Below, one piece after another: positions 25,501 through 60,889 of a stretch of DNA of 64,000 nt. This DNA is from Amphiscolops sp. MND2022 (Eukaryota), in contig OZ076409.1 in assembly GCA_964187785.1 (NCBI GenBank), positions 69,442,001-69,506,000 of the forward strand, given 5' to 3'. The position numbers and the translations under genes are program-made. The notes beneath the pieces are model-generated. The model searched no databases. It saw nothing but the letters and a program-made list of their open reading frames with translations, and was not told the origin of the DNA. Numbering within the stretch: the stretch's first letter is position 1; each line of letters begins with the position of its first letter.

Positions 25501-25593
25501 TACAATTGCGCCCATGACCTGTTGAGATTAAAGCACCATTGTCCAATCTGCAGAAGACCAATCAAAGACGTGATCAAAGTATTTTATGGGTGA
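19570..25593 (+). CDS. neur: Neuralized-like E3 ubiquitin ligase (2 NHR domains + C-terminal RING), ~576 aa; exons 19570-20167, 22594-22830, 23522-23758, 24154-24414, 25196-25593
   Basis: NHR1 FSQNHGKNLQLS...FCNAIVFTNQPI...LWVVFDVYG; NHR2 FHKISG|SKIKFS...LWLLIDLFG; RING CAVC...CGHCCLCYNC...CPICRRPIKDVIK; all introns phase 1 and in frame; MGxxxT myristoylation-like start; exon 3/4 junction uncertain by one codon. Confidence 0.9.
20749..21740 (+). mobile_element. Family 3 inner copy nested in the outer copy
   Basis: Same termini; inserted at a T-run so that CCCTTCAATATTT / GAAATTTTGCAACAGAA rejoins the host repeat unit. Confidence 0.7.
20846..20905 (+). pseudogene. tRNA-derived segment (Glu-TTC-like) within family 3; second copy ~20307-20365
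   Basis: A-box-like TGGTCTAGCGG, TTTCA loop, B-box GGTTCGAACCC; acceptor and anticodon stems do not pair. Confidence 0.5.
24453..24861. mobile_element. hAT-type MITE in neuralized intron 4
   Basis: 13-bp TIR CAGAGTTGGAACC / GGTTCCAACTCTG; perfect 8-bp TSD ATCAGGCG at 24445-24452 and 24862-24869. Confidence 0.88.
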
Positions 25594-37588: not shown

Positions 37589-38545
37589 AGGAGTCGGAAA
37601 TAATTTTCGACTACTTATGCATTCGTGTCGTTTTTTTATCCCGACCTTCCAATGAAAATTTCAATTTTCTCAAAACTGTCCTAACGATTTTTATGAAATT
37701 TTGCACAGTCATTCTACATCCAAAGGGGCTCCTACGTGCGCAAAGGCATCGAAATCATTTGACCGGATGTGAGAAACGTAGCCAAAATTGGCCCAAAAAT
37801 GGCAAAAAACTCATTTTTAGTCGGCGCTTTTCGAAGAAAAACGCAGACTATAGTAGTGACTTCTTTTTTTTAAAGACCAACGAAGTGACAGATTTTATAA
37901 AGAGTTATAAATAGCTGAGCTGACTTCACTGCAGTAACTGCAACGCTAGCTATCACTGCTGGCACTTGGCATAGAGGTTAATTAAGCTTTTTGAGGTCTG
38001 CCAAGCAGAAGGACGTGGGTTCGAGTCCCACCCTTGATCAAATTTTTTTGTGCAGGTTTTTTTCGGCTTTGTGAGACTTTCGCAATTTTTTTTAATGTCT
38101 CCAAAGGGTCCACCCTTCATTTTTTTTCTATTTTGCATAAGAATGGATGTTCAAAACCTCCCAAAGGGCCCCCCTTTTACAATTTTTCGGCACTATGCGA
38201 CTTACCGGAGACCAAAAAATTTCGAAAAAAAATTCAAAAAAATTCGGATTTTTTTAAAGTTTTTCCTCACGCGGGTAATGTAGAAGAGAATACTTGACAC
38301 TTTGAAGTCCTTTTGTTATTTTTGAGCCTTAGATATGGCGCCGACTTGGGCCGTTCCCGGCTTGTTTCAACTTTATACGATTTTCTCAAAAACTGTCCAT
38401 ACGATTCGAACGAAATTTTCTACAGTATTTTTACACTATTTTAAGGTCCTATATGTGCAATGGCATCAAAATTGTATGGCTGGGACGCGAAAAACATGGC
38501 CAAAGTTAGCCCAAAAATGGTTTGAAAAAACAGCCATTTTTGGGC
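37589..38545 (+). mobile_element. Second family 1 copy, interrupted by a family 2 element
   Basis: Same head AGGAGTCGGAAA...TTTTCGACTACTTATGCA and diverged 172-bp units at 37660-37818 and 38367-38545. Confidence 0.7.
37819..38366 (+). mobile_element. Helentron-like non-autonomous family 2 with a tRNA-like segment
   Basis: subTIR AGTCGGCGC / GCGCCGACT, 3' hairpin GCCGTTCCCGGC plus TTGTT; inserted in a T-run; T-arm GTGGG-TTCGAGT-CCCAC at 38015-38031. Confidence 0.7.
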
Positions 38546-39232
38546 TTCGAATTTCGCCCAAATTTTCAAAGTACTGTCAAAATGGGTAAATTCTGCCCAA
38601 ATTCGTGCCAGTGGGGACCATTTGGTCCTTTTTCCGCCGTTTCAGCGTTCCAGCATTCATCGTTGAAGAATGACGAGACTTCAAAATGATCGAAAAGAAA
38701 CTTTTTCAACTCAAAGTTAAGAAGTTTCCACACAACTAGGATTTGAAGTGGATGCATGTGGAAAGTACTCAGTTAGACGACAAAAATGAACATTTTTTCA
38801 AAAAGAACATTTAGACCGGAAACCTCTGAAAATGTTTCAATTTGCTTTTTAAGACTTTGGAACATTTGAGCTGCAAAATCCCAAAAGTTGGAAAAGAAGC
38901 CATCAATGCGATTCAAAGAGCCGCTTTAGCTTTTTTTTCAAGGAGCTGTGGTTGAGAAAGCTTTTCAAAAATGCTCCAACTTGATGCATCGTTAAACAAA
39001 AACTTGCAAAACTGAAAGAGCATTTGTTAGTAGAGAGACCGAAACTGTAAAACAAGTGCCTGATGCGATGAAAATATTTTCGATTTTGGGTTTGTAGACT
39101 TGTATCTCAAAATGAGGCTAGAGACGTTGATACTTGTAGCACATATTGTGGAGAAGTACGCGAAGTTTTAGCATGTTTTGATTTTCCTTTATATTTGGCG
39201 TCGTTTGGTGAAATTTTTGTTTTATTCTCCAG

Positions 39233-39664
39233 AGTAGTATGCGAATTCCCGATTCGGACCAGCAAAACCATCAAATTTAGCCATTTTTTCAAAAAAAATC
39301 GATAAAATTGGTGTTTTTTCACTACTAAAAAAATTGTCAGGTTAATCAAACCATCAAAATTAGATATTTTTTCAAAAAAAATCGATAAAATTGGTGTTTT
39401 TTCACTACTAAAAAATTTTTTAATTAATTCGGGCCAGTCAAATATTTTTTAAAAAAAATGTTGATTATTTTTGAAAAAAATCAACGTTTTTTTCACAACT
39501 AACTGTTAAAAAATAACCAAAGTAAAAATTAGGTATTTTTCACAACTGAAAAATTAACAAAATTGATGAAAAATAACTATTAAATGAATTATTTATCATT
39601 CAAAGAATTTGTTAATAACTATGGATTAAAAAATGAAGCAACTTCCAATGTAGAAATAAAAGAA
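39233..39664 (+). repeat. Polinton left TIR (~432 bp)
   Basis: Reverse complement of 52257-52687 with a few mismatches; contains an internal ~80-bp direct repeat. Confidence 0.93.
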
Positions 39665-39736
39665 TTTTTCACTAATTTTTGAAAAATATTTAATGAAAAT
39701 TTTTTAATTAAACTATTTTTTCCTTAATAAATAGTA

Positions 39737-42700
39737 ATGGAGAATTGTAGTATTTGTAATTTAAATTATAAAAAAGTTTTCAAGTCTGATCATTTAAAAT
39801 CAGTAAAGCATCTTGAAAAATTAGATCAATATTATTGTAAAAAATGTAATTTATTTATGCCCTTATCAGATAAAATTTCTCATTTAAGTTCAGATGAACA
39901 TAAAAATAAAACCGAACAACGACGTGTTTGGTGTGAAGATTGTAGTAAATTTATATCTGATACAACAAGACATTTCCAAAGTGAAATTCATTTACAAAAC
40001 CGTCAACGGGAAAACATGCAAAATTTCGGTAATGGAGTAGAAATAATTATGAATGAAAATACATACATTAAACTTGAAATAAGTCCAACTAGTAATCTCG
40101 AAGATCATATAAATGAATTACTTAGTAAAAATTATTTTCCCCGATATAAATATCAATTGAGTTATCTAGCTAAATTTTCAAAAATAGTTAATGGAGAAGA
40201 AGAAGTATTTATAAAATGGATAAAATCAGATCTAATGAATAACAATATACAACCAGATACTCATAACACATTAATGCAGAAATTAGATGATGAACAATTA
40301 GAAGGATCAGGTTTTGTGTTTCAAGAAATAGAAGAAGTTATTTTAGAAATATATAAAGTTAATGATATTCAAGTTTCATCATATATTGAATTACCAGGAA
40401 AATATAAGGATAATAAATCAATCATAAATATAAAGAATAATGATCAATATTGTTTTTTATGGTGTATTTTAGCCCAGTTGTATCCAGTTGAGAATCATAA
40501 AGATAGAATATCAAAATATATTATTCATTTAAATAAACTCAACCTGAAAGGATTAGAGTTCCCTATGAAAGTTAAAGATATTCCCAAGTTCGAAAACTTA
40601 AATAATTTAAATATAAATGTATTTGAACTCACTGGAAATGTTTTAACACCAATCCACGTTAACAAAAATTACTTACAACCACAAATAGATTTATTATTAT
40701 ATCAAAATCACTATTGTTTAATAACAAAGCTGCATTGTTTAATAAATAAAGATTCACATATGAAACATGTATGTAGAAGATGTTTAACAGCATTTAGTTC
40801 ACAACCAGTTCTAATTGATCATATAGATCGTTGTCAAAAACAGCAACCAACTGAAATCACATTCAGTTGGAAGGATCAGTTAAAGTTCGAAGATTATCAT
40901 ATGAAAGTCCCTCGACCAATAAGAGTATATGCAGGTTTTGAATGTATCAATCAACCTCAAAATACCCCCAACGTGTTATTCAAACAAATTCCAATTGCAG
41001 TAGGATATTATGTAATTTCACCATTCGGAAATTATTACTATTCATACTTTGGAATAGATTGTACCAAGTGGTTTGTAAATAGAATGTTAACTTTAGAAAA
41101 AATTGCATCAAAATATTTTAAAACAAATTTAGAATTAGAAATGAGTCAAGAAGAAGAAGAAGTACAATTTGAACAAGCAGAAGAGTGTTGGCTTTGTGAA
41201 AATCCACTCGATGATACTAAGGTTAGAGATCATGATCATCTAACAGGAAAATACAGAGGTGCAGCTCATAATATATGTAACATCAATTGTAAACAAAAGT
41301 CATCAAGTTTTGTTCCTATATTTTTCCATAACTTTTCTGGGTATGATTGTCATCTTATATTTGAAGAACTTGTAACCGAAGCATACAATCAAAGTTATAA
41401 TCCAACGATAATTCCAAAATCACTGGAAAATTATGTTAGTGTACAAGTAGGTTGTTTGAGATTCTTAGATTCATACCGATTTCTTTCTTCCAGTTTAAAT
41501 AAATTAGTTAAGAGTTTAGACAATTTTCCTATCATGAAATTGGAAGGAATGAGTGATGATTTATTCAAAAAGAAATTAGCTTATCCTTATGAATACTTAA
41601 ATCTTGATAACTTTCAGGAACCATTAAATCTAACCAAAGAAGATTATTGGTCAACATTAACACAATCTTATCCATCAGATGATGATACAAAAAGAACCCA
41701 AGAACTAATTGATAAAAATAAAATTGAAAATGGAAGAGAATTAACAATGTTATATTTAAAAATGGATGTTCTTCAATTAGCTGATGTATTCGAAAACTTT
41801 GTGAAAAGTTCTACACGAGAATATAAAATTGATCCTTTGTATATTTACTCTCTACCTGGTTATACATGGAAAGCAGGTTTGAAGTTGACTGATATAAAGT
41901 TAGACTTCATAAAAGATAAAAACCTACTGCTACTACTTGAAAATAATATCCGTGGAGGAATTTCAAGTGTAATGGGAGATCGTCACGTGCAATCTGATGA
42001 AAATAAACAAATCTTATATATCGATGCAAATAATCTATATGGATGGGCAATGAGTCAAAATCTTCCTACTGGCGAATTCGAAATATTACCTCTTAATCCG
42101 TGTAATTACACAGATAATTACAATCTAGAGCAATTAGTAGAAGATTTATTACAAATACCTGATGATAATGAATATGGATTCTTTATAGAATGTGATTTAG
42201 AATATCCTGTTGAAATTAAAGAAAAAACAAAAAACTTTCCTTTTTGTCCGTATCAAACAAAAGCAGATCCAAACTTATTCTCAGGTTATATGAATAATAT
42301 AAATCAACCTAATTACAAACCAACATCAAAACTTATGTGTGATGTAACCAATAAATCGAAATTTATGATACATTATAGGATGTTTAAGTTTTATCTTAAC
42401 CAAGGGATGAAAGTAACGAAGATACATACTATCTATAAGTTTAAACAAAGTCCATGGTTAGGTAAATATATCGATCATAATACTCAGAAACGCACAGTAG
42501 CGAAAACAAACTTTGAAAAGGATCTTTATAAATTAATGAATAATGCTTTCTTTGGGAAGACTATGGAAAATGTAAGAGATAGAACCAATCTAGAATTCAT
42601 TGATCATTCTCAAATAGATCAAATAATAAAAAGACAATCCAAGTTAAGTTTCAAAGGTATTGTGGATCATTATTCTAAGTTTAGTGTGTACAAGTTTGAT

Positions 42701-43483
42701 AAAGAAAAAACAGTCTTTGATAAACCAATTTATTTAGGTTTTACAGTTTTAGAACTATCAAAACTATTAATGTATGAATTTTATTATAACAAATTACAAC
42801 CATATTGGAAACAATCCATACAACTACACTACATGGACACTGATAGTTTTATTCTGAGTTTTGATACAAACCACCAAGAACTAATAAACTTTTTACAAGG
42901 AAACAAAGATGAATTTGATTTCAGTGAATTACACCCAAGTGATGAATTATATGATCCTATTAACAAAAAAGTTATAGGAAAAATGAAAATTGAAACAAGT
43001 CCAGTTTTGGTGTTAGATACCTTCACGGCATTGCGATCAAAGTCATATTCTTTTAGTTACAATAACATTCAAAAAGCGAAACAAAAAGGAATACAAAATG
43101 CTCCCAAATGTGAACACTACAAAAATTCATTGTTTAATTCAGAAACATCAAGTTCTACAAATATATCAATTAGATCTAATTTACACAACCTTACAGTTGA
43201 AAAACAAAACAAACTAGCTTTGAATCCTTTTGACGATAAACGTTTGTATATAAATCCAATACAAAGTTTACCATGGGACAAACACACTCAAAAAGGCGAT
43301 TGCCCTTGTATATATTGTTTGAAATTAATTGGTTTGTATTATAAAGAATTAACTATAAATGTTGACGGTAGCAAGAAAACAGATGAAGAAATTTATTTCA
43401 ATGTTTGGTATTGGAAACAAGCACTCACCCATCAACAAATTGTGAAGTTGATAAGTGATCGAGCACATGTTTTAGAAAAATAA
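39737..43483 (+). CDS. polB: Protein-primed family B DNA polymerase (pPolB) polyprotein with N-terminal Zn fingers, OTU-like domain and inserted EndoVII/HNH-like domain
   Basis: YIDANNLYG, KLMNNAFFGK, YMDTDS; exonuclease FHNFSGYD and FLDSYRF; CWLC...RDHDHLTGKYRGAAHNICN. Confidence 0.96.
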   Translation: MENCSICNLNYKKVFKSDHLKSVKHLEKLDQYYCKKCNLFMPLSDKISHLSSDEHKNKTEQRRVWCEDCSKFISDTTRHFQSEIHLQNRQRENMQNFGNGVEIIMNENTYIKLEISPTSNLEDHINELLSKNYFPRYKYQLSYLAKFSKIVNGEEEVFIKWIKSDLMNNNIQPDTHNTLMQKLDDEQLEGSGFVFQEIEEVILEIYKVNDIQVSSYIELPGKYKDNKSIINIKNNDQYCFLWCILAQLYPVENHKDRISKYIIHLNKLNLKGLEFPMKVKDIPKFENLNNLNINVFELTGNVLTPIHVNKNYLQPQIDLLLYQNHYCLITKLHCLINKDSHMKHVCRRCLTAFSSQPVLIDHIDRCQKQQPTEITFSWKDQLKFEDYHMKVPRPIRVYAGFECINQPQNTPNVLFKQIPIAVGYYVISPFGNYYYSYFGIDCTKWFVNRMLTLEKIASKYFKTNLELEMSQEEEEVQFEQAEECWLCENPLDDTKVRDHDHLTGKYRGAAHNICNINCKQKSSSFVPIFFHNFSGYDCHLIFEELVTEAYNQSYNPTIIPKSLENYVSVQVGCLRFLDSYRFLSSSLNKLVKSLDNFPIMKLEGMSDDLFKKKLAYPYEYLNLDNFQEPLNLTKEDYWSTLTQSYPSDDDTKRTQELIDKNKIENGRELTMLYLKMDVLQLADVFENFVKSSTREYKIDPLYIYSLPGYTWKAGLKLTDIKLDFIKDKNLLLLLENNIRGGISSVMGDRHVQSDENKQILYIDANNLYGWAMSQNLPTGEFEILPLNPCNYTDNYNLEQLVEDLLQIPDDNEYGFFIECDLEYPVEIKEKTKNFPFCPYQTKADPNLFSGYMNNINQPNYKPTSKLMCDVTNKSKFMIHYRMFKFYLNQGMKVTKIHTIYKFKQSPWLGKYIDHNTQKRTVAKTNFEKDLYKLMNNAFFGKTMENVRDRTNLEFIDHSQIDQIIKRQSKLSFKGIVDHYSKFSVYKFDKEKTVFDKPIYLGFTVLELSKLLMYEFYYNKLQPYWKQSIQLHYMDTDSFILSFDTNHQELINFLQGNKDEFDFSELHPSDELYDPINKKVIGKMKIETSPVLVLDTFTALRSKSYSFSYNNIQKAKQKGIQNAPKCEHYKNSLFNSETSSSTNISIRSNLHNLTVEKQNKLALNPFDDKRLYINPIQSLPWDKHTQKGDCPCIYCLKLIGLYYKELTINVDGSKKTDEEIYFNVWYWKQALTHQQIVKLISDRAHVLEK

Positions 43484-43575
43484 ATATATTATTTTATAAT
43501 TATTTTTATTTATAAAAATAAATTTTTTTATGATATCAGCAGAGCTGTATTATTATATATTTAAATTTTATTTAT

Positions 43576-44805
43576 TCATAATAAATCAAAATGCCTTTGT
43601 CCATCACTACTGATACTTATCAGTTTAGGTGTTAGGACTAGGGCATAAGCTATATAGTCTGCTACATCAATGGCAGTATTAAATTTGAATTCTAATCTAA
43701 TAGGTTGACTCCCGATGGGGTCTTTTTGTTTGGATAAATCAAATACATAGAAATTATAATTTGTCCTGAATTTATGCAAATCAATAAATGGATTGAGTAG
43801 GTTAGTTTCACTTTTTAACAAATAGAAGTTTTCAATTTCACTGTATGCTTGATCATATTTATCTCTATCATAATCACATTCTATTCCATCATCTGGATTT
43901 TTTTCTGATCCTATTTTACAAACTGCATTTGAAACAGGTAATCTATCAAATATTGCATTATCATGTGTTTGTGAATCAATTTTATTTCTAGCTTGAAATC
44001 CAACAATTATAAAACTTGGTGTTGATTCTCCACTATTACCTAATTCAAATGTCCAATTGTTATTCGTGTTAACATCTTTTCTAAATACAATCCGTTCCAT
44101 GTAATATAATTCAGTTGGATCTTTGTCTAATATTTGATCCATCACGAGTTGTTGGTTTTCCATTGATGGTGTGTAGTGTGGAATATACCAGGAGATGTCT
44201 TTTATATTTATTTTTGCAGCATCCACACCATTGTCCCTGATAATAGGATCATTATTATTATTACGTTTTAATGTGAGACTGTAACCCAATCCATAAGTTA
44301 TTTTTTCTTGATCAGCGGATCCAAATATATCAGTTAATTTTATTCTCACAAAAAAGGTTCCTTTCTCTGTTTTATTATTTGTTAGTTCTTGTCTTCTAGT
44401 TGCTTGTGGTTCTTCAAATCCGTACATCAATTGACTTGTTTGTTGATTAGATGTTAAAAGTTTATACATCAATGAAATTGGGTGTAGATTATCAACTTTT
44501 TCTAAATGTTTACCTGAACTAGTAGTTAACTTAGCTTCACTAAATAAAGCAACGGGTCCAAAGTTGACCAAGCTTATTTGATCACTATCTGCATAACTTG
44601 TATCATCATTTTTAAGAACTTCAAATTCTAATGATATATATGAGTTTTGTAAACAAATATATGCATCTTCTCTTGGGAAGATGATGGAAATATTTGAATT
44701 ATTATTGTTGATTGTAGCTAAACTACTAGGTGAGTAGTTAATAAAATCAATTTTATGAGTAGGTTTATCCATAGCATATTTATTTTTCAATGAGAATAAT
44801 TCCAT
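43576..44805 (-). CDS. Major capsid protein (double jelly-roll)
   Basis: 409 aa, beta-rich; motifs PSFIIVGFQ and FYVFDLSKQ...IRLEFKF...AYALV resemble Polinton MCP ends; Polinton context. Confidence 0.8.
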   Translation of the reverse strand: MELFSLKNKYAMDKPTHKIDFINYSPSSLATINNNNSNISIIFPREDAYICLQNSYISLEFEVLKNDDTSYADSDQISLVNFGPVALFSEAKLTTSSGKHLEKVDNLHPISLMYKLLTSNQQTSQLMYGFEEPQATRRQELTNNKTEKGTFFVRIKLTDIFGSADQEKITYGLGYSLTLKRNNNNDPIIRDNGVDAAKINIKDISWYIPHYTPSMENQQLVMDQILDKDPTELYYMERIVFRKDVNTNNNWTFELGNSGESTPSFIIVGFQARNKIDSQTHDNAIFDRLPVSNAVCKIGSEKNPDDGIECDYDRDKYDQAYSEIENFYLLKSETNLLNPFIDLHKFRTNYNFYVFDLSKQKDPIGSQPIRLEFKFNTAIDVADYIAYALVLTPKLISISSDGQRHFDLL

Positions 44806-44873
44806 TTTTTAAAGAATAAATATTCATGATGATAATTTAAAATTTATATTTATATTATTTTTACCAAATAAAT

Positions 44874-45395
44874 TTATCCTAAAAAAGTAAACTCAGAATT
44901 TAGTTTAGTTTTATTGTTTTTATACACATCGTAAGTTTGTTTTAATTTGTTGTATTCATTCAGATCAATTTTATTGTCTTCTAAACATTTTGAATGTAGT
45001 TTTTGGTAGTCGTGTAGTGTTGTACCAGCAAGAGTATATTTTTTAGTATTGTGTTGTTCTTTTCTTTTCAGGTACTCTCCAGCAATTTTACTGATTATAC
45101 ATAAACCTGCACCTATACGACTTGCTATAGGCACAACAACAAGTCCAACTCCTGTGACACTCAACGTGACACAAGTTGATGATACTGCTAGTACTGAAAC
45201 TCCATCAATAGATTGAATTAAATCGTTTATAATTTTATATGTTTTAGATTTCTTTTTATACTTTTTAGCTTCATGATTATAAAAATTTTGAATATCTTTT
45301 ATATTTTGAATTGAATTATTAAAACTATTTATTTCTTCCAATCGCATATCAAGATTATCCGATTCACGTAAACAAGGATACAATTTTTCACTCAT
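44874..45395 (-). CDS. Conserved Polinton membrane protein (PW-like) with a Gly/Val-rich hydrophobic hairpin
   Basis: GVSVLAVSSTCVTLSVTGVGLVVVPIASRIGAGLCII followed by SKCLEDNKIDLNEY. Confidence 0.6.
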   Translation of the reverse strand: MSEKLYPCLRESDNLDMRLEEINSFNNSIQNIKDIQNFYNHEAKKYKKKSKTYKIINDLIQSIDGVSVLAVSSTCVTLSVTGVGLVVVPIASRIGAGLCIISKIAGEYLKRKEQHNTKKYTLAGTTLHDYQKLHSKCLEDNKIDLNEYNKLKQTYDVYKNNKTKLNSEFTFLG

Positions 45396-45419
45396 TTAAT
45401 TTTAAATAAAAACTTAATT

Positions 45420-46130
45420 TTAGTTTTCAAAAAGTATGAAATTTATCTCAGTATCGGTTAGTTTCATTCTATATTTAAGGTCAACTATATCTTTGTATTC
45501 ATCTTTCTTTAAGCACTTCACGATATCTTCTCGCGTTGAATAGTCTAAATCAGATAAATAATACACACCATCTGATGTCTTTATTTCTGTTCCGTATTTT
45601 TCCCACAAGTATTCATCACTAAAATATAAGTACTCATTAAAGATTTGGTCTTTATTTTCAAATGAGTCAAACAATCCTTTGTTGTATAGTAATTGAATAG
45701 TATCTTTGACTGCTTGATTTTTACATTTTTCCAATTCCAAAATAAGGTTTCTCTCAAAATGATTACGTAAAATGGTTTGTTGTTCTTCCACTAACTCGGC
45801 AGCATCCAAAATTATTTCTTTTTTCTTTTTTAAAAATTTATTTTTAATATCTTGTTCTAAATACTTTAAATTTATTTTTATATCTTCTATACTCTTGTTA
45901 ATGTCTAAGAATAACTTTGCATTGACTACGATTTGTGTTTCACCGTTGTCAAATATAATTTCTTGTAGGTTACCGAAGGTGCTTTGCATATCAAAATTTT
46001 CTAAAGTATTAGACAAATCATTAAGTTTTATGTTGATTAATTTGGTTTGTGATTCCAATTCTTTTTCTAAATTCTCAATCTTATCTTTTTGTAAGCTTTC
46101 GGCACTATAACCAAATTTATGAATTGACAT
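45420..46130 (-). CDS. Hypothetical coiled-coil protein
   Basis: 236-aa intact ORF in a tightly packed gene array; heptad-like L/I/K/E pattern. Confidence 0.65.
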   Translation of the reverse strand: MSIHKFGYSAESLQKDKIENLEKELESQTKLINIKLNDLSNTLENFDMQSTFGNLQEIIFDNGETQIVVNAKLFLDINKSIEDIKINLKYLEQDIKNKFLKKKKEIILDAAELVEEQQTILRNHFERNLILELEKCKNQAVKDTIQLLYNKGLFDSFENKDQIFNEYLYFSDEYLWEKYGTEIKTSDGVYYLSDLDYSTREDIVKCLKKDEYKDIVDLKYRMKLTDTEINFILFEN

Positions 46131-46147
46131 TATTTATTTAAATATAT

Positions 46148-47002
46148 TTACTCACTTTGATGGAAAATATTCATACTTTCTAACGTTTTGTTGTTAGATT
46201 TGAAATTGAATACACTTCCTAAAAGTTCTTGTTCATAATATTTTCCTTCTATTTGTTCGTTGTTTTCATCTACTAAACCATACGTAACTGGGTTAGTTGG
46301 AATAATTTTATGTATTTTAAAAAGTTCTCTATTCCAATTTGTTGTATAACCTTTACTATATAAATTGCGTTTATCAGGAACTCTTACATAGTCTCCCACT
46401 TGAAATTTGGGTTGTTTCGGTTTATTAACAAAAGTAGGTGGATCTATTGGTTGATTATTAGCTTCAAAAGGTGTCATTTTGGTTGTGGTATGGACACGAT
46501 TATTATATTTTTCCACAGCAGCATCAAGATGATTCAACCAGTTACCTTTACCTTCAATGTACATTGGTTTTTTCATTAGATCTAATAAGGTTCTATTGAA
46601 TCGTTCAACAAAAACAGCTTTCAAATCTGAGTGAGTTGAATAAATTTGTATTTCATTTTGTTTAAGAAAATCCAAAAATGTTTTATTATAAAACTCTTTA
46701 CCTCTATCTGACCATATTTTATCCGGTTTTCTTTTTGTTTTTTCGATAAGACTTTTAAATGCATTTGTTGTACTTTTTCCTGATTTATCTTCAAGAGGAA
46801 TGGCCCATGCGTATTTAGTATGATTGTCAATTTTTGTAAAAATGAACTTGTAGTTTTTGTTGTATTTTGATAAGCTAGACCTGTCTATCAGATCGATACT
46901 CCAACATTCATCTTTATAATGAGGAATTATTTTAATGCGATCAAACTTTTTAATTACAGGAGAAAATATTTCTTTAGCAATTTCTTTCTTCTTTTCACTC
47001 AT
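46148..47002 (-). CDS. Retroviral-like DDE integrase (Polinton type)
   Basis: WSIDLID, IWSDRGKEF, VERFNRTL, YNNRVH, KFQVGDYVRV...GYTTNW. Confidence 0.95.
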   Translation of the reverse strand: MSEKKKEIAKEIFSPVIKKFDRIKIIPHYKDECWSIDLIDRSSLSKYNKNYKFIFTKIDNHTKYAWAIPLEDKSGKSTTNAFKSLIEKTKRKPDKIWSDRGKEFYNKTFLDFLKQNEIQIYSTHSDLKAVFVERFNRTLLDLMKKPMYIEGKGNWLNHLDAAVEKYNNRVHTTTKMTPFEANNQPIDPPTFVNKPKQPKFQVGDYVRVPDKRNLYSKGYTTNWNRELFKIHKIIPTNPVTYGLVDENNEQIEGKYYEQELLGSVFNFKSNNKTLESMNIFHQSE

Positions 47003-47016
47003 TTATTTCTTAATAA

Positions 47017-48027
47017 TTGAATAAAAAATTATATATAGGTTTATTATGTGTAATTTTTATTATAGTTTTATATATTTATTGGTATTATATTAGACCTAGA
47101 CATTACGAAAAATTATACCAAAAACTAGAACAATTCAAGGGATTTAAATATTCTCATTTAACTAACAAAGAAGAAGAACAAGAAATTACTCCACCAAACA
47201 CAAGTACAAATAGTCACTTTTTAATATATGGTACTAGTGGATCAGGTAAGACTAGTTTCCTTAAGTATTATTTAGATCAAACTAAAACAAATTTTATAGT
47301 ATTCGGTAGAGATGAAAATGAGTTTAAAGATAATTATATACCTTTGTTACAGTTAGAAAATATTGAAATAGAGAAACTTGCTAATAGAACTATAATTTTA
47401 GATGATGCAGGAGCATTCAAACAACTCAGAACTAAAGTAGAAGACTTATTTCGGTTTGGTAGACACAATAATATACAAGTTATATACCTTGCTCACTATG
47501 CAAAAGATGTTCTCCCAATAGTGAGAGAGAATTGTTTTAAATTATATATCACAATAAATAATCCAGATAGTTTCTTTGAAACCATAATACAAACTTATTC
47601 AATCAAAGAAGATCTTAAATGGAAACAATATCGTAGTCAGTTAGAATTTGGTGTAATTGAATTTGATACTAGATCACAAAAGTATAAAATACTCAATCAA
47701 AAGTATCAACTAATCTACGATACAACTAAACATAAATGGAGTCCTGAAGATTATGTAAAATATGAAAGTTATTTCTTTACAGGTGAAGAATACAACAAAC
47801 TCAAGGTGTTTTTAGAAGATACGTCAGATCAAACAATTGAAATAACACCTTTTAATGTAGCTTTTTATTATGTATATTTTTGTAAACAAAATAAAATCAA
47901 AGTAAATGAATCTAAAATAGACAACTACGTTGAACGCATGCAACAACCACTAATTTCAAATCAACTTAAAGAGGAATTTAAGAAAATTATAATTGATCAA
48001 GCAATCAGGTTTAGTAAAAGTAATTAA
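47017..48027 (+). CDS. A32/FtsK-like ATPase 1 with an N-terminal transmembrane helix (starts at TTG, no ATG)
   Basis: LYIGLLCVIFIIVLYIYWYYI; Walker A GTSGSGKT; Walker B IILDD; GRH; VRENC. Confidence 0.85.
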   Translation: MNKKLYIGLLCVIFIIVLYIYWYYIRPRHYEKLYQKLEQFKGFKYSHLTNKEEEQEITPPNTSTNSHFLIYGTSGSGKTSFLKYYLDQTKTNFIVFGRDENEFKDNYIPLLQLENIEIEKLANRTIILDDAGAFKQLRTKVEDLFRFGRHNNIQVIYLAHYAKDVLPIVRENCFKLYITINNPDSFFETIIQTYSIKEDLKWKQYRSQLEFGVIEFDTRSQKYKILNQKYQLIYDTTKHKWSPEDYVKYESYFFTGEEYNKLKVFLEDTSDQTIEITPFNVAFYYVYFCKQNKIKVNESKIDNYVERMQQPLISNQLKEEFKKIIIDQAIRFSKSN

Positions 48028-48170
48028 AAAATGGGTCTGATTTCTTAGTAAAAAATCACTAAGCAAATTCACTAAGAGCATATATTTTTCACTAAGCAAA
48101 TAAGGTTACACTTAAAACATCATGCTCTTAGTGAATTTGCTTAGTGATTTAGTGATTTTTTACTAAATAA

Positions 48171-49239
48171 ATGAAGTGTTTAATTTGTGGAAAAAGTAAT
48201 GAAAAATCTGTCTGCTCCGATTGTCAGAATAAAAAAAAGATGTAAAGTGTGTAATATACTGAAAACAGATTTTTACAATTATAAAATTGGTAAAATGTGT
48301 AGTACAAGTATAGAATGTTTCAATAAAAAAGTAAAATGTGAATTCTGTAATAAAGAATTAAAAAAAATTTATTTATCAAAACATTTAAAAAGATGTATTA
48401 TCAATCATGATAATAATAATTACACAAATAATGAAATTATAAATCATAATGAAAATCATGATAATAATAGTTATACAAATAATGAAATTATAAATCATAA
48501 TGAAAATTATGATAATAATAATTATACAAATAATGAAATTATAAATCATAATGAAAATTATGATGATATTAATTATACAAATAATATCATTACAAATGAT
48601 AATAATGATAATATTGATACAGCTACGCTGGCTTTGCATAACAATTGTAATAGGACATTGATAGTTGGCCCATCATTTTGTGGTAAGACTCATTTGTTGT
48701 TGAATAAATTACGATTGATTCGTTTGGAAGATCCAGAGAAACAAATTCGTATCATTACAAGGAGTCTGGAACAATATGAGGATGTGAAACTAGATTTAGA
48801 ACTAGGAGATATTGAAGTGGAAGAAAATGTGGGGGATTTGGATGAGTATAGGGGGTGTTGTGTAGTATTTGATGATATGTTAGACTCCAACCAGAAAATG
48901 ATTGATCCATTTTTTACTAGGGGAAGGCACAAATCTTGTGATGTTTATTATTTATGTCAGAGTTATTTTGATGCACCAAAAAAGACAGTTAGAAACAATA
49001 GTAATATCATAATTTTATTTCAACAAACACTGATAGATGTAGAACACATTTATAGAGATATTGCTGGTTTTGATATGTCTTATGATGAATTCAAAAGTTT
49101 ATGCAGAGAAGCATGGCGGGATACGTATAATTATTTATTAATAAATAGGTTAGAAGATAAAAATGGGAGTAAGTATATGATTTGTAATGAATCCAATCTG
49201 CAATACCAGATATTTAATCCACAAACTGATCCTTTTTAG
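48171..49239 (+). CDS. A32/FtsK-like packaging ATPase 2 with N-terminal Zn fingers and Asn-rich repeats; one-base frameshift in the A8 tract at 48231-48238
   Basis: GPSFCGKT, VVFDD, GRH, YLCQ, VRNN; upstream frame MKCLICGKSNEKSVCSDCQNKK joins RCKVC if one A is removed. Confidence 0.88.
48404..48585 (+). repeat. 51-bp coding minisatellite (17 aa NHDNNSYTNNEIINHNE, ~3.5 copies)
   Basis: Visible directly in DNA and protein. Confidence 0.9.
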
Positions 49240-50194
49240 TAAAAGCTGAAAGAATGTTTTGATGTTGATTTGTTGTAATACATTGGTATTGTAAAAGTTT
49301 ATCTGCAATTGCTATGATTTGTTCACTAAGCATAGGATTATCATTTCCTCCTACTTTTTCAAAATAGAGTAGTTTTAATTGATCTACAAGCTCATCAGGA
49401 TCCGATGGAAGGAAGACATACTGATTAAATCCACTTCCTAATTGGGATAGTTGATAAGGAATATGTTGATGTATGTATTGATTAATTAAATCTTTAATGA
49501 AATAATATCTCTTTGGTTTTTTATCTCCATAATTTATATTATATTTCATATCATTTAAAAAAGAATAAATTAGATTCACGTTTTGTGGTTGCGTGTCTAG
49601 CTGTGCATTAGTTATAAAATATGAAAGATCCGGATCCTTTAAATTATATTTGTTACCACTACTCAAGAAGGTTAGTGTATTATTTTTAATTAGTACTTGT
49701 TGAGGATTAATAGGGTTAATTATGAATAAATTTGGATTACCTTCACCGAAGGCGCTTTGCGTAACAGGTTCTAAACTAAATTGACTTTTGTTTTTGTCAT
49801 TAAGCAAATTAGAAACTGTCTTGATTATAGTAGAATCAACTTGGTTGGAATTCACAAGATCTGTAACAAGTTGATTATTACGGTAAGTAATTTCATCATA
49901 TTCTTTAATCGATTTTTGTAAATTTTTATTCAAAACGTTACTCGATTCTCGTATTGCTTGTGTTGTAGTTTGAGTAGAATCACGTAACGCTTGTAATTGT
50001 TTTTCAGATTCTAGCTTGGTTTGGTTTTGACTTTTTTTCTGATTTCCAGTAACAGGTTCAAAAACTTCTTCCATATCGTAATGAAAGTCTTGCTTCCCTA
50101 GTTTCTCTTTTAATCTTTCAGCTTTCAAAGAAGATTTTGTTTCTTGCAATTTTTTTAATTTCTCTAAATCATCTCGATTATGAATTGAATACAT
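49214..50194 (-). CDS. Conserved Polinton protein of unknown function (coiled coil + C-terminal helical motif)
   Basis: C-terminal LGSG...LPSDPDELVDQLKLL...GGNDN...IIAIADKLL motif recalled from Polinton ORFs. Confidence 0.65.
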   Translation of the reverse strand: MYSIHNRDDLEKLKKLQETKSSLKAERLKEKLGKQDFHYDMEEVFEPVTGNQKKSQNQTKLESEKQLQALRDSTQTTTQAIRESSNVLNKNLQKSIKEYDEITYRNNQLVTDLVNSNQVDSTIIKTVSNLLNDKNKSQFSLEPVTQSAFGEGNPNLFIINPINPQQVLIKNNTLTFLSSGNKYNLKDPDLSYFITNAQLDTQPQNVNLIYSFLNDMKYNINYGDKKPKRYYFIKDLINQYIHQHIPYQLSQLGSGFNQYVFLPSDPDELVDQLKLLYFEKVGGNDNPMLSEQIIAIADKLLQYQCITTNQHQNILSAFTKKDQFVD

Positions 50195-50253
50195 ATTTTT
50201 TTATTCATAAAAAATAATATTTAATTTACAGCAAGGCTGTAAATCAATGAATT

Positions 50254-50613
50254 TTACCTAAATACAGGCCTTTTCCTTGCGGCTATCATTCGAGGATTTT
50301 TACTTGCTGCTGCTGTACCAATATTAGCTGCGAGTTCTAATGCTCTTCCAGGATTGTTTAAAATTTTCTTTCCGACACTCTTGGCGGCTTTTCCTATACC
50401 TCGGAAAAAGTCACCTAATCCTTCTGCTTGTATAGTTTGATCAGATACTATAGGTGAATTATTTCTTTTACAAGTTGAACAAGTACCTCTTAATAATTTA
50501 ACAGGTGCTCCAGTTTTTTTATTTTGAGTAATATCTCCACGAATATTTGTGGTAGCGGAATAATGTTTTCCACCAACACAATATGAATTATTTTTAAATT
50601 TATTAAAGCTCAT
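50254..50613 (-). CDS. Small basic virion core/membrane-active protein candidate
   Basis: Zn-ribbon-like YCV...RGTCSTC, then EG|LGDFFRGIGKAAKSVGKKIL amphipathic helix. Confidence 0.6.
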   Translation of the reverse strand: MSFNKFKNNSYCVGGKHYSATTNIRGDITQNKKTGAPVKLLRGTCSTCKRNNSPIVSDQTIQAEGLGDFFRGIGKAAKSVGKKILNNPGRALELAANIGTAAASKNPRMIAARKRPVFR

Positions 50614-50701
50614 TTATTAGAAAAAAAATATTCATTTTTTCTTCAGCACAAACTTTCAGTTTGCAAACTTTTAGTTTGTAAACCTTTGGTTTGTATATAT
50701 A

Positions 50702-51747
50702 TTAAATCTTGATGATTTGAATTGCAAATGTTAATGTCTCCCCGTTGAAATCAACTGGGTTATGATTGTTATCCTCAAGGAAAAATTGAATACTATCTAA
50801 CCTTGTTTTGTTTATTTTTTATACAGAATAATATTGGGTTCTTTTATAATTTTATATCCGGGAGGAGCACTAAGATTATATGAAAATAAAATTTGTTCTC
50901 GTATACCATTAACAATTGAACCATCTACACAATCACACTTAAGATGAACTTTGTCTGTCGTTGTTATCATAACTGGTTTTTCTGATATATGAGTTCCCGC
51001 TGGATATTCCTTGTTTGTAAACCCTAAAAGTTTATTTAATTCTGAATTAAAATATATACCACTAGCAGTTGTTAAAACTGATTTCATTGATATTGTATCT
51101 GCTTCTATGTTGAGTTTAAAGTCAGAACTACCACCAGGTAAAGTACAACATTTAATAAGTTCTTGCTGGATAGTATTATTTATATCAACTAATTCATATG
51201 ATCCTGGTGGTAGTTCTATTTCAATGGAATCAGTTACAGATCCAATTCCAGAAATAACAATTGGTTTATCTTTAATGTGCAAAGCACCTTCGGTATTCTG
51301 ATTAATTTGATCAATTATTTTCATCAAATAATCATAATCTGTTTTAGTAATAGTCTTAATTTCAGCATTATCATTAACTATAAGTTTTTTAATTTTTTCT
51401 ATATCACCAGAGGTTTTATATAAATACTCAACATTTGTTACTAATTGAGTGTCAACATCATTTTCTTTTAACATTTTTTCTGTATAAAGAAGTTTAAATT
51501 TATTGTTCTTCTCAGTAATGTTATAAACTGTATTATATACTTCTAAACTTGTTACTCCCATCATCCATTGTTCTGGCAGCTCCCAGGGAACATCGAATGA
51601 AAAAGATTCTTTTTGTTTGTTCATTTTAAATTCTAAAGTTTCTTGTAGTTTGGATAAGGTATTTTCAACAATATCTAAATTAGATTTTGCAATACTCAAT
51701 AAAAGAGATTCTTTTTTATCATAGGTTACAAAATTTGATAGATCCAT
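50702..51747 (-). CDS. Minor capsid protein (penton); one-base frameshift at the T6 tract 50815-50820
   Basis: ELPPGSYE, LNKLLGF, HLKCDCVDGS, PPGYKI; alternative frame continues INKTRLDSIQFFLEDNNHNPVDFNGETLTFAIQIIKI*, a typical penton C-terminus. Confidence 0.85.
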
Positions 51748-51750
51748 TTA

Positions 51751-51933
51751 TTAAACGAAAAATTGTTTAAATCCACTTGCAGAAATCTTATTTATGAATT
51801 CTTGGTTTTGTTTTGATAATTTCTTTTTTTGATTATTTTTTTGTATTATTTTCTCATCAAATTGATTCTCATTGGTATTCATTGGTTTTTGAATAATTTT
51901 AATTTGAGCTGAATAATTATTAATTTTCTTCAT
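51751..51933 (-). CDS. Small basic hypothetical protein (60 aa)
   Basis: Fills the gap between protease and penton exactly; TAAATG start; ends with a possible ASG|F cleavage-like site. Confidence 0.5.
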   Translation of the reverse strand: MKKINNYSAQIKIIQKPMNTNENQFDEKIIQKNNQKKKLSKQNQEFINKISASGFKQFFV

Positions 51934-51940
51934 TTAGGAA

Positions 51941-52336
51941 TTATAAATTTTGGTAGTATAAATTTAAAACTGCATTTTTGAAGCCTATAATTTGTGTGAG
52001 ATACAACACATACAAACAATACGCCGCACAATAACTGTCGTCTTTCTGGATTTGATATTCTGAATAAATACCATTATTAATTTGTTTTGTTATATTTAGT
52101 GGTGGTGGACAGCCATATGAATCGAAATAGTTTTGGTTTGTAAACAAAACCCAATGTGTTCCTTTAGTTGGATGTAAGTTAACTATACCACTGGTGGTTA
52201 TAAATTTATCATCTCTCATATATATTCCACAAGATGTGTTCATGAGTTTTAAGATTTCTTTTATTTCTACATTGGAAGTTGCTTCATTTTTTAATCCATA
52301 GTTATTAACAAATTCTTTGAATGATAAATAATACAT
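51941..52336 (-). CDS. Adenain-like cysteine maturation protease
   Basis: GTHWV (His), YFDSYG (Asp), QIQ...YCAAYC (Gln, Cys). Confidence 0.92.
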   Translation of the reverse strand: MYYLSFKEFVNNYGLKNEATSNVEIKEILKLMNTSCGIYMRDDKFITTSGIVNLHPTKGTHWVLFTNQNYFDSYGCPPPLNITKQINNGIYSEYQIQKDDSYCAAYCLYVLYLTQIIGFKNAVLNLYYQNL

Positions 52337-52687
52337 TTAATAGTTATTTTTCATCAATTTTGTTAATTTTTCAGTTGTGAAAAATAACTAATTTTTACTT
52401 TGGTTATTTTTTAACAGTTAGTTGTGAAAAAAACGTTGATTTTTTTCAAAAATAATCAACATTTTTTTTAAAAAAATATTTGACTGGCCCGAATTAATTT
52501 AAAAAATTTTTAGTAGTGAAAAAACACCAATTTTATCGATTTTTTTGAAAAATATCTAATTTTGATGGTTTGATTAACCTGTCAAATTTTTTTTAGTAGT
52601 GAAAAAACACCAATTTTATCGATTTTTTTGAAAAAATGGCTAAATTTGATGGTTTGGCTGGTCCGAATCGGGAATTCGCATACTACT
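52257..52687 (-). repeat. Polinton right TIR
   Basis: Reverse complement of the left TIR; overlaps the first ~27 codons of the protease. Confidence 0.93.
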
Positions 52688-52735
52688 CTCCAGTTTGGTG
52701 AGTGGTAATTTGAAAACAGCTACAACACCCATTTT

Positions 52736-53730
52736 AGTCGGCGCTTTTCCATTATGGAAAAAGGCCCGACTATTACAGTGACTAGTTTTCTTGTTTTTTG
52801 TCAGTCTCACTCTGAATGGCCCACTTTTTGCACTATGTGTACTTTTACCATGAATACTGAGTACTTGTTTTTGAACGCATCCAAAGCCTCTAATATGAAA
52901 TCCAAAACCATTCCAAAGCAGAAGGATCCCCCTTTACACTTATTTGGCACTATGAGACTTCCCCGCTTTTTCGGGTTTGAGAGACTCTCGAAAATTTCTT
53001 AGTATCTCCAATGGGCCCGGCATTCATTTTTTTCATATTCAGCAACAGAATGCATGTTAAAAAATCACCCTTTCAGCTTTTTGGCCTTGTTCAAAATTCT
53101 CATTTCTCCTTTTTTCGCAAAGTTTTTATTGTCTCCAAAGGGACCCTTTCAATTTTTTGATGTTTTGCAGCAGAAGGGATGTTGAAAAACCCCCAAAGGC
53201 CACCCCTTTTACATTTTTTGGCACTATGAGACTGTTCAAGTTGCGATTTTTTGTCCGGTATTTGGTTTTCTCAATTTATGTGAATACTTTTCGTCAATAC
53301 TATCCGAATTTTTGACGTAATAGCCTCAGTATAACGCTATATCCGAATATCAGACGGTATGTCCGAACTATATTGCGTTTTACTAAAGAGGAGGCAGAGG
53401 TTGATTAACGAGCGCTCCCATTTGTCCCAGCACGCTATATTGGAACTTCTGAAGCGTTTTCCGAGCACGAAAGGCATCCTTTGTTTCGAAATTGTTTGAG
53501 TTTTTTTCCGAAAAAACGTCCTATGCATATTTTAAAAACCGGTGGGGTGCAATTCAGTCGAAACAGTGATGCATACTTTCTTCACGCTGCTTCACGTTTA
53601 CTTCAATTTTTTGATATTTTGCAACAAAATAGGTGTTAAAGAATCTCAAAATGCCCCTTCTACATTTTTCAGCACTATGAAACTGTTCGAAATTCCAATT
53701 TTTTGTCCGATATTAGGTTTTCTAATATAT
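52736..53730 (+). mobile_element. Family 2-related Helentron-like element (5' end clear, 3' end approximate); related copy at 56718-57140
   Basis: Head AGTCGGCGCTTTT...AAAA...GCCCGACTATTACAGT at 52736 and 56718; shared repeat body. Confidence 0.55.
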
Positions 53731-59745: not shown

Positions 59746-60889
59746 TGTTAGTGATCATCTCAAAATAATATTTCACGTGGCTTCAAGTCTCAAGAAAGAT
59801 TCTTAAATGGCATTTCAACCCTGCTCAGCCTCCTCATTTCGGCGGTATGTGGGAACACTTGATCCGATCATGCAAGGATGCATTTTACTCCATCCTTGGT
59901 TGCCAAACCCTGACGGACGACACCTTTACAACACTACTTTGCAAAAAAGAAGGTTTCTTGAACTGCCGTCCACTCACTAGTGTTTCCACAGATGTTCGTG
60001 ACAAAGACGCGCTTACTCCTAATCATTTTATCTTGGGGAGAGCTCATGGCAAAATTCCTTTGACATTTTACCATGACAATAGCACACCTTTGACTCGACA
60101 ATGGAAATTTGCCCAACAACTGATCGACCAAGTATGGAAGCGACTGGAGAAAGAATATTACCCAACTTTAGTACCTAGAAAGAAATGGACATCTAAAACA
60201 ATATATTTGAAACCTGGTACACTAGTTTGGGTTTCGAAAGAATTCACTCCAAGAGGTTTATGGCCTTTGGGTCGTGTCATTAAGGCATTGTCACAAGATT
60301 CAACCCAATTCGAGAGATATCTAATCAAAACTCAACTAGGTGAGAAGGAATATCAAGCTGTACAACTTGCACCTTGAAACCTCGTTAATCAAGATGAAAC
60401 TGAAAACTAAAACTTTTTCGATTTTCACTTTGGAAGATTATTTTGCGTTGCAAAATGAGCCGGCTGTTAGTGATCATGTCAAAATAGTATTTCACGTGGC
60501 TTCAAGTCTCGAGAAAGATTCAACTCCGAACTTCAAAAGAAACCTTTCACACTTCCGGAAAAAGCAATTGAACATTTCCGTCAACTTGGACCTTTGGAAA
60601 ACTTTCTTCCACGCAAATTATCATCAACTCAAACTCTTTTGTTGAATTACCTTTATTCAATCGATGCTTACTTTACCTTATCACTGAAATCTAACTAAAA
60701 GTCTTTCATGTAAAATACTTTTACCTCCAAAGAAATAGACTCCCAGATTGATCGGAACGGTCAATAAGCACTAGATATACGGTTTTGTACATTCCAAAAT
60801 TCGACCTCCCAATCAATATGGGCCACTTCAATTGAGCATAACCGCAAAGATAAACGGACATTTATTACAATATCGAACCGGCAATTTCA
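59746..60889 (+). mobile_element. Internally deleted BEL/Pao LTR retrotransposon
   Basis: 5-bp TSD GGGTC (59741-59745, 60890-60894); TG...CA ends; 57-bp 5' LTR stub (59746-59802) matches the start of the 3' LTR (60465-60889). Confidence 0.85.
59805..60377 (+). pseudogene. BEL/Pao integrase C-terminal half (with DUF5641-like region)
   Basis: FNPAQPPHFGGMWE, LNCRPLT, LTPNHFILG, WKRLEKEYYPTL, PRGLWPLGRV. Confidence 0.88.

What the first reader, a model, noticed from the sequence alone, without database searches (positions are those of the whole stretch)
39233..52687. Structurally complete, compact endogenous Polinton virus with a full virion module
Both TIRs, the 6-bp TSD and 12 densely packed intronless genes are present, including MCP, penton, protease, ATPase, integrase and pPolB in 13.5 kb, which is at the small end for Polintons. 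This suggests a family able to form virions, possibly an undescribed lineage.
Basis: partly seen in the sequence, partly recalled or inferred. Interest (0 to 1): 0.7.

Follow-up and report, generated by a model that had tools for sequence, protein, structure and literature searches.

The report
Polinton with second, membrane-anchored ATPase
This is a slightly decayed copy of a common kind of virus-like element integrated in an animal genome; it is unusual because, beside the normal DNA-packaging motor gene, it carries a second such gene whose product has a conserved membrane anchor.

Summary
The element is real: 13,455 bp, 437-bp terminal inverted repeats, a 6-bp target-site duplication and 12 tightly packed frames in an animal genome. 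It is a Polinton of a high-copy family: database clusters of its proteins hold up to 317 members at 90% identity. This copy is not intact. The putative penton frame breaks 37 residues early, a small basic core-type gene has lost its conserved end, one ATPase frame has no ATG, and a polymerase exonuclease motif is non-canonical. It probably cannot build virions alone; the family may.

ATPase-B (48199-49239) is soluble, with a zinc-finger-like N-terminus. ATPase-A (47017-48027) is only about 25% alike and folds like the STIV2 packaging NTPase (Z 15.4). It has an N-terminal transmembrane helix kept in 99 of 120 close and 18 of 21 distant relatives, intact Walker motifs, and His where ATPase-B has Gln. 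My paper searches found no Polinton described with two ATPases or a membrane-anchored one.

Best guess: ATPase-A is a DNA pump working at a membrane during assembly or entry (inferred, about 40%). Verdict: an ordinary Polinton with one new gene-content variant.

The parts
39227..39232 (.). left target-site duplication (6 bp)
39233..39669 (+). left TIR, 437 bp, with an internal 83-bp tandem duplication and a dead copy of the first 29 protease codons (39584-39670)
39737..43483 (+). pPolB, 1248 aa: N-terminal Cys/His fingers, vOTU-like Cys237/His324 motifs, exonuclease with inserted endonuclease VII domain (471-516), polymerase motifs A-C; Exo I motif non-canonical at residue 400
   Evidence: motifs (patterns recalled); Endonuclease_7 E 1.6e-4, below cut-off; phrog_423 E 8e-8; no PF03175 hit
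43576..44805 (-). major capsid protein, double jelly roll, 409 aa, full length
   Evidence: PF21738 68.7 bits; 1864 relatives; low-confidence model whose named matches are mostly capsid proteins
44874..45395 (-). 173-aa protein with a hydrophobic segment near residue 83; family not identified
   Evidence: no Pfam match above cut-off
45420..46130 (-). 236-aa acidic protein, unidentified
46148..47002 (-). retroviral-type integrase, 284 aa, D-D-E motifs present
   Evidence: rve 46.8 bits
47017..48027 (+). ATPase-A: A32/FtsK-HerA-type ATPase with N-terminal transmembrane helix (about residues 7-25), P-loop domain (about 60-235) and helical C-terminal domain; no ATG start in this copy
   Evidence: Pox_A32 27.9 bits, cut-off 22.8
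48053..48150 (.). perfect 29-bp inverted repeat with a 40-bp spacer between the two ATPase genes; role unknown
   Evidence: I9
48199..49239 (+). ATPase-B, 346 aa: Cys-rich finger-like N-terminus, Asn-rich 51-bp tandem repeat (48403-48603), A32-type ATPase with Gln sensor; no hydrophobic segment; presumed canonical packaging ATPase
   Evidence: hhalign 94.6% to the ATPase-A profile; motifs; repeat; no Pox_A32 hit
49214..50194 (-). 326-aa conserved protein (121-member cluster); resembles the Polinton PZ / 'GasderminX' class (recalled, untested)
50254..50613 (-). small basic protein (net +17, amphipathic helix near residue 67), core or 'Cupiennin'-like (recalled, untested); a deletion with frame change near 50280 removes the conserved end
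50702..51747 (-). putative penton (minor capsid protein), broken: frame ends at 50812 in an A-run, the rest lies in another frame
   Evidence: nearest Atlas clusters are unnamed viral proteins, score 0.97-0.98 but recognition below threshold
51751..51933 (-). 60-aa basic ORF, singleton in the database
51941..52336 (-). adenain/vUlp1-type cysteine protease, 131 aa, His-Asp-Gln-Cys motifs present; starts inside the right TIR
   Evidence: motifs (patterns recalled; no Pfam match above cut-off); 317-member cluster
52251..52687 (-). right TIR, 437 bp
52688..52693 (.). right target-site duplication (6 bp)

Best explanation
An integrated, mildly decayed copy of a high-copy animal Polinton (polintovirus) family. 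Shown: ends, duplication, gene set, breaks, two distinct A32/FtsK-type ATPases, and a conserved membrane anchor on one of them. From knowledge of Polintons: the integrase inserts the linear genome and makes the 6-bp duplication; pPolB copies it by protein priming from the TIRs; MCP, penton, protease and a packaging ATPase build and fill an icosahedral particle. This copy probably cannot do that unaided, but its intact ends could be moved by proteins of other copies (inferred). Inferred for the new gene: ATPase-B is the ordinary soluble packaging motor, and ATPase-A is an active, single-pass membrane-anchored ring ATPase that pumps or hands over the viral DNA at a membrane, either a lipid layer of the assembling particle or a host membrane crossed at entry or exit. 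Odds: identity as a Polinton 0.97; this copy defective 0.85; ATPase-A a regular, selected gene of the family 0.8; DNA pump at a membrane 0.4.
For: Ends and duplication. Breaks. ATPase-A type: Pox_A32 above cut-off. A model of a natural relative (P0123) has pLDDT 82 with helix 3-38, a P-loop domain and a helical tail. Its best matches are the STIV2 packaging NTPase B204 (Foldseek E 5e-7; VIA Z 15.4, rmsd 2.7 over 164 residues) and A32-like viral ATPases. Anchor kept in 99 of 120 close relatives and 18 of 21 counted distant ones, 30-53% identical. Walker A kept in 113, Walker B in 112 and R-x-N in 112 of 120; His in the sensor column in 114 of 120, against Gln in ATPase-B. The two ATPases are 25% identical over 104 residues and far apart in a tree. 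ATPase-A has the element's GC3 (0.17; others 0.15-0.27) and a 228-member cluster, like MCP (118) and protease (317). On shared contigs its divergence tier follows the MCP's in 10 of 11 pairs (Fisher p 0.024). Precedent for packaging through a membrane: PRD1 (PMC4267777, abstract).
Against: No expression, particle or localisation data. No other element could be read as DNA, so that both ATPases sit together in other copies is inferred from cluster sizes and matching contig lengths. The shared-contig counts (11, 8, 13) are no higher than a random spread would give if the assembly had only 1000-2000 contigs, and ATPase-A tiers do not follow penton tiers (rho 0.30, p 0.32). The fold match covers only residues 55-235; VirB4, HerA and TcpA are within 1.0-2.3 Z units of the best hit, so the fold does not single out packaging. 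The only distant relative with context (L001, 3.3 kb) shows no capsid or polymerase gene. Helix orientation is undetermined. The penton break lies in an A-run where at least 24 of 120 relatives also end, so it could be an assembly error. The papers read give no internal membrane for Polintons.
Confidence: 0.55

Rival explanations
1. ATPase-A is an accessory gene taken from another preplasmiviricot or a giant virus and works outside particle assembly, for instance in membrane remodelling, host modulation or exclusion of competing elements. The virion is an ordinary naked Polinton capsid packed by ATPase-B alone.
For: Nearest Atlas clusters are viral A32-like ATPases, mostly Preplasmiviricota. 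It has a His sensor and an extra helical tail. Bellas et al. report some animal A32-like ATPases that group with PLV ones (10.64898/2026.06.19.733378, section 7). It lies head-to-head with the integrase, away from the MCP.
Against: It keeps all packaging-type motifs, and its best structural match is a packaging NTPase. It sits directly upstream of ATPase-B on the same strand.
Confidence: 0.25
2. The two ATPases form one motor: ATPase-A is the membrane-bound base or partner and ATPase-B the DNA-gripping subunit (finger-like N-terminus), so that one ring replaces the ATPase plus membrane conduit of PRD1.
For: Adjacent, co-oriented, homologous. In L001 a finger protein weakly like the ATPase-B N-terminus (32% over 56 residues, pairwise E 4e-4) lies upstream of a distant ATPase-A.
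Against: The L001 finger match is weak, and that frame ends without an ATPase domain. The two cores are only 25% identical.
Confidence: 0.12
3. This copy is intact and virion-competent; the breaks are sequencing or assembly errors, or are read through.
For: The penton break is in a homopolymer and recurs in relatives. The collection's gene caller writes Met for non-ATG starts, so relatives cannot show whether the ATPase-A start is copy-specific. MCP, integrase and protease look whole.
Against: The small basic gene has lost about ten codons, which a homopolymer slip does not explain. The Exo I and start-codon departures are point differences. The TIRs differ by 8 substitutions. Proteins are 90-98% identical to cluster mates, as expected for an ageing insertion.
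Confidence: 0.05
4. ATPase-A belongs to a separate small element nested in this one copy and is not a family gene.
For: A perfect 29-bp inverted repeat lies just downstream. Earlier scan notes describe mini-elements built around Polinton ATPases (unchecked).
Against: Only 14 bp separate it from the integrase start, and no flanking repeat pair encloses it. It has the same GC3 and start context as the other genes, and its divergence tiers follow MCP.
Confidence: 0.03

Closest known systems
Polintons/Mavericks (polintoviruses; class Polintoviricetes)
   Same: TIRs, 6-bp duplication, pPolB, rve integrase, DJR MCP, protease, packaging ATPase, putative penton; size within 13-25 kb (Jeong et al.; Krupovic 2014).
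   Different: Two A32-type ATPases, one with a transmembrane anchor; the descriptions read name a single ATPase. The putative penton gene is eight genes from the MCP gene, not next to it or one gene away as Krupovic 2014 calls typical.
Beta adintoviruses (Eupolintoviridae, formerly Adintoviridae; Starrett 2021, PMC8502044; renaming)
   Same: Animal host; OTU-type motifs in a PolB that Pfam PF03175 does not detect; two small-gene candidates for GasderminX and Cupiennin (recalled likeness); no PLA2 hit.
   Different: No direct comparison with the Terrapene reference was possible; second ATPase.
pPolB2 Polintons of nematodes and oomycetes with an HNH insert (Jeong et al., 10.1101/2023.08.22.554363)
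   Same: An HNH-superfamily (endonuclease VII) domain inserted in pPolB.
   Different: Class membership untested; no fusogen-sized gene here.
STIV2 B204 and PRD1 P9 packaging ATPases; membrane-anchored FtsK-family translocases
   Same: Fold and motifs of ATPase-A; PRD1 packs DNA through a membrane conduit.
   Different: In PRD1 the ATPase lies outside the membrane and the conduit is made by separate proteins (P20/P22); here the anchor is fused to the ATPase and a second, soluble ATPase is also present.

Membership tests
Polinton/Maverick | TIRs of 100-1500 bp | tested here: met
   437 bp, 426 matches; range
Polinton/Maverick | 5-8 bp target-site duplication | tested here: met
   6 bp, identical
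Polinton/Maverick | protein-primed family B polymerase | tested here: met
   Exo II/III, polymerase A/B/C and vOTU-like motifs in order in a 1248-aa frame (patterns recalled); no profile hit to the polymerase domain
Polinton/Maverick | rve integrase | tested here: met
   PF00665 46.8 bits, cut-off 32.6
Polinton/Maverick | double jelly-roll MCP | tested here: met
   PF21738 68.7 bits; the model itself is poor, pLDDT 42
Polinton/Maverick | single jelly-roll penton | tested here: inconclusive
   no Pfam, NCBIfam or PDB sequence match for a full-length relative; weak Atlas lead to unnamed viral clusters; not folded
Polinton/Maverick | adenain/vUlp1 protease | tested here: inconclusive
   His, Asp, Gln, Cys motifs in order (recalled), no profile hit
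Polinton/Maverick | A32/FtsK-like ATPase | tested here: met
   two present
Self-sufficient virion-competent provirus (this copy) | all morphogenesis frames unbroken | tested here: not met
Beta adintovirus (Eupolintoviridae) | OTU-PolB divergent from pfam03175 | tested here: inconclusive
   no PF03175 hit at E 0.1; identity to reference PolBs not measured
Beta adintovirus (Eupolintoviridae) | GasderminX and Cupiennin accessory genes | not testable with these tools
   candidates 49214-50194 and 50254-50613 by recalled likeness; no profile for them
Beta adintovirus (Eupolintoviridae) | hexon and penton cluster with Terrapene cognates | not testable with these tools
   no named reference sequence among stored proteins
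Beta adintovirus (Eupolintoviridae) | animal host | tested here: met
   Neuralized domain 117 bits and RING exon in the flank; host group not determined
pPolB2-HNH Polintons (Jeong et al.) | pPolB2 clade membership with HNH insert | tested here: inconclusive
   endonuclease VII domain present; clade not tested
A32/FtsK-HerA packaging ATPases (ATPase-A) | fold, Walker A/B, conserved Arg motifs | tested here: met
A32/FtsK-HerA packaging ATPases (ATPase-A) | Gln sensor after strand 4 (recalled feature) | tested here: not met
   His in 114 of 120 close relatives; Gln in ATPase-B and L002
A32/FtsK-HerA packaging ATPases (ATPase-A) | translocates DNA into capsids | not testable with these tools
   needs experiment

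The most novel reading that the evidence does not exclude
A group of animal Polintons packs or delivers its genome through a lipid membrane with a dedicated membrane-anchored A32-type motor, alongside the soluble one. That would point to membrane-containing polintovirus particles like those of their tectivirus ancestors, and the widespread TM-ATPase family found here (25-50% identical relatives in ENA, JGI and Logan assemblies) would be the marker gene for them.
Probability: 0.2. Interest if true: 0.78.

Novelty: new variant of a known kind. Interest (0 to 1): 0.45.

Why it matters
[quoted passage not shown] A conserved membrane-anchored packaging-type ATPase gives a concrete handle on whether some of them use a membrane, as PRD1 does. 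It also matters in practice: A32 ATPase trees are used to classify these viruses, and a second, distant ATPase in the same genome would misplace elements.

Tried and rejected
No host assembly was at hand, so copy number and gene order in other copies could not be read. Sequencing runs: none was listed, so no reads were laid. IMG/VR scans with MCP, the MCP alignment, the distant ATPase-A alignment, ATPase-B and the pPolB core confirmed no relative. JGI scans: none for MCP, 2 short loci for distant ATPase-A, of which L002 looks like an ordinary soluble A32-type ATPase. PDB sequence searches gave nothing for pPolB, the MCP profile or the penton relative, and only generic P-loop hits for the ATPase-A profile. 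The MCP model (pLDDT 42) is too poor to count as a fold test. Whether the two ATPases bind each other is open: no complex prediction is available. The C-terminal helical domain of ATPase-A (236-336) was not tested on its own.

Rejected: my first null for shared contig lengths (0.03) was the wrong null; one search replaces it. Rejected: Met at the start of all 120 ATPase-A relatives as proof that the start loss is copy-specific. Rejected: mriyaviruses as a precedent for two ATPases, which I had recalled; the 7 ATPase passages shown do not say so. The DUF5901 lead for the penton found no paper. A recalled guess at the host group was not tested and is not used. Earlier scan notes: nothing by sequence, place or the specific words.
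Full report
OBSERVATION. The element runs from 39233 to 52687 (13,455 bp). Both ends carry the same 6-bp flank, and the 437-bp TIRs differ by 8 substitutions and 5 small gaps. GC is 27% inside and 39% outside. Twelve frames cover 95% of the space between the TIRs. The host is an animal: the flank holds a Neuralized domain and a RING exon. A tblastn of 11 element proteins (nine from this copy, two natural relatives) found no other Polinton piece in the window.

GENE IDENTITIES. MCP (PF21738) and integrase (rve) pass curated cut-offs. pPolB was identified by ordered motifs (patterns recalled). It has vOTU-like Cys and His motifs, as described for polinton pPolBs (PMC11161782, passages), and an endonuclease VII insert, and it is not hit by PF03175. 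That fits Starrett's Beta class (PMC8502044, text parts 1-3 of 6 and a word search of the supplement), but no named reference could be compared. The protease rests on motifs. The penton rests on its conservation (1529 relatives among 2916 candidates), a recalled C-terminal motif and a weak Atlas lead; its fold was not shown.

A HIGH-COPY FAMILY. MCP has 1864 relatives among 4846 candidates; the best 120 are 79-96% identical, unnamed, 119 of them from ENA and mostly on long contigs. The window's own proteins are in the collection on one 320-kb contig. Their 90% clusters hold 118 (MCP), 317 (protease), 121 (326-aa protein), 48 (penton), 34 (integrase), 32 (small basic protein) and 228 (ATPase-A) members; pPolB, ATPase-B, the 236-aa and the 60-aa proteins are singletons and the 173-aa protein has 2. 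How many assemblies these come from is not known.

THIS COPY IS DECAYED. (1) The penton frame stops after 311 codons in an A-run; a 348-aa relative, 97% identical, matches on in another frame. Of 120 listed relatives 77 reach the full end, 24 stop near the same place and 19 end elsewhere or were not classed, so the site is a slippage hot spot or an assembly weak spot. (2) The small basic gene has lost about ten codons and its frame near 50280; 11 of 14 listed cluster mates keep the end it lacks. (3) ATPase-A has no ATG until residue 308. Its first codon follows TAA like 6 of the other 11 starts (background 27 of 452 ATGs), which suggests a copy-specific loss, but relatives cannot confirm it because the gene caller writes Met for any start. 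(4) The Exo I motif is non-acidic at residue 400 (no pPolB relatives were at hand). 'Structurally complete' therefore holds for layout, not for coding capacity.

TWO ATPASES. ATPase-A (47017-48027) and ATPase-B (48199-49239) are adjacent and co-oriented, 25% identical over 104 residues and homologous by profile (94.6%). ATPase-B is soluble, has a finger-like N-terminus and an Asn-rich repeat, and has Gln in the sensor column. ATPase-A passes the Pox_A32 cut-off. A model of a natural relative (P0123, 41-row alignment) has pLDDT 82: helix 3-38, P-loop domain, helical tail. Its best PDB match is the STIV2 packaging NTPase B204, with VirB4 and HerA close behind, and its best viral matches are A32-like ATPases. 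A strongly hydrophobic 19-residue stretch precedes Walker A in 99 of the 120 listed close relatives (350 found; many misses are N-terminally short gene calls). It does so in 18 of 21 distant ones; I picked 24 of the 150 listed, added L001, and dropped 4 that lacked 50 residues before the first Walker-A-like match or lacked the match. Walker A, Walker B and R-x-N survive in 113, 112 and 112 of 120, and His replaces the Gln sensor in 114 of 120. A FastTree of 30 sequences on 169 columns separates the anchored family from ATPase-B and L002 (support 0.98), but with only two outside sequences. Distant members come from short ENA, JGI and Logan contigs without informative names. L001 places one beside a finger protein weakly like the ATPase-B N-terminus.

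IS ATPASE-A A FAMILY GENE? It lies inside the TIRs, 14 bp from the integrase start, with the element's GC3 and start context, and its cluster is as large as those of core genes. Hit lists share contig lengths 11 times (MCP with ATPase-A), 8 times (MCP with penton, the control) and 13 times (ATPase-A with penton). That is above chance only if the assembly has several thousand contigs. Divergence tiers agree with MCP in 10 of 11 pairs (p 0.024) but not with penton (p 0.32). I put this at 0.8.

MECHANISM. The Polinton cycle is taken from the literature. The role of ATPase-A is inferred: an anchored, motif-complete FtsK/A32 ATPase most simply pumps DNA at a membrane. PRD1 packs through a membrane conduit built by separate proteins (PMC4267777, outline and abstract). 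An accessory role outside assembly, or a two-subunit motor with ATPase-B, remain open.

WHAT IS IN PRINT. One search (Polinton, two ATPases, second ATPase, transmembrane, packaging ATPase; 3 of 5 terms) gave 15 papers, and none of the 14 listed held Polinton together with 'two ATPases' or 'second ATPase'. One search (Maverick, Polinton, two ATPase, ATPase paralog, membrane-anchored, second ATPase; 3 of 6) gave none. One search listed nematode fusogen-bearing Mavericks (listing only) as the membrane link. Passages of Jeong et al. (passages and section 8), the coral survey 10.1101/2023.10.06.561300 (passages), Bellas et al. 10.64898/2026.06.19.733378 (passages and sections 7 and 17), Krupovic 2014 PMC4028283 (passages) and the ICTV summary PMC12451622 (passages) mention no second ATPase. 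The library lacks most subscription journals and Repbase, and preprint supplements were closed; the annotation files of Bellas et al. could hold such elements. An earlier scan note (e1-7276535) reports zinc-fingered Polinton ATPases as common in marine invertebrate DNA, which agrees with ATPase-B; it is an unchecked lead.

VERDICT. Observation partly confirmed, interpretation partly supported. A Polinton of an abundant family, this copy defective, and the family probably marked by a second, membrane-anchored A32-type ATPase that I could not find described. New variant of a known kind; interest 0.45.

Noticed in passing
window 39584-39670 and 52251-52336: The protease gene starts inside the right TIR, so the left TIR carries a dead copy of its first 29 codons 67 bp before the pPolB start; the TIR may serve as promoter for both terminal genes.
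   Followed up: partly
starts of element genes: 6 of 11 ATG starts are preceded by TAA, against 27 of 452 ATGs in the element; this recalls the poxvirus late-promoter initiator (recalled) and may be a shared late motif.
   Followed up: partly
window 48053-48150: Perfect 29-bp inverted repeat with a 40-bp spacer between the two ATPase genes.
   Followed up: no
window 39210-39232 and 52688-52703: The insertion site looks like a splice acceptor (pyrimidine tract ending in CAG) with a donor-like GTGAGT 4 bases after the duplication; it may have hit a micro-exon, or this is chance.
   Followed up: no
window 50812-50820: The A-run in the penton gene is a recurrent break site: at least 24 of 120 relatives end near it, with different tails.
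   Followed up: partly
window 19567-20226 and 25105-25593: Host Neuralized-type gene exons (NHR domain, RING finger).
   Followed up: partly
window 59769-60377, 9717-10187, 16726-17334: Frames that look like retroelement remnants (integrase C-terminus, reverse transcriptase, finger domain); likeness recalled.
   Followed up: no
window 38088-38250 and 52919-53730: Dispersed AT-rich host repeats occur on both sides of the element (D2, D3, D6-D8).
   Followed up: no
L001 1-282 (-) and 323-1261 (+): Beside the distant anchored ATPase lie a multi-finger protein and a frame with a fibre-like repeat motif (recalled; no Pfam hit).
   Followed up: partly
ATPase-A relatives P0157-P0241: A second subfamily (62-70% identical, about 390-410 aa) carries a Gly/Ala-rich extension ahead of the membrane helix.
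   Followed up: partly
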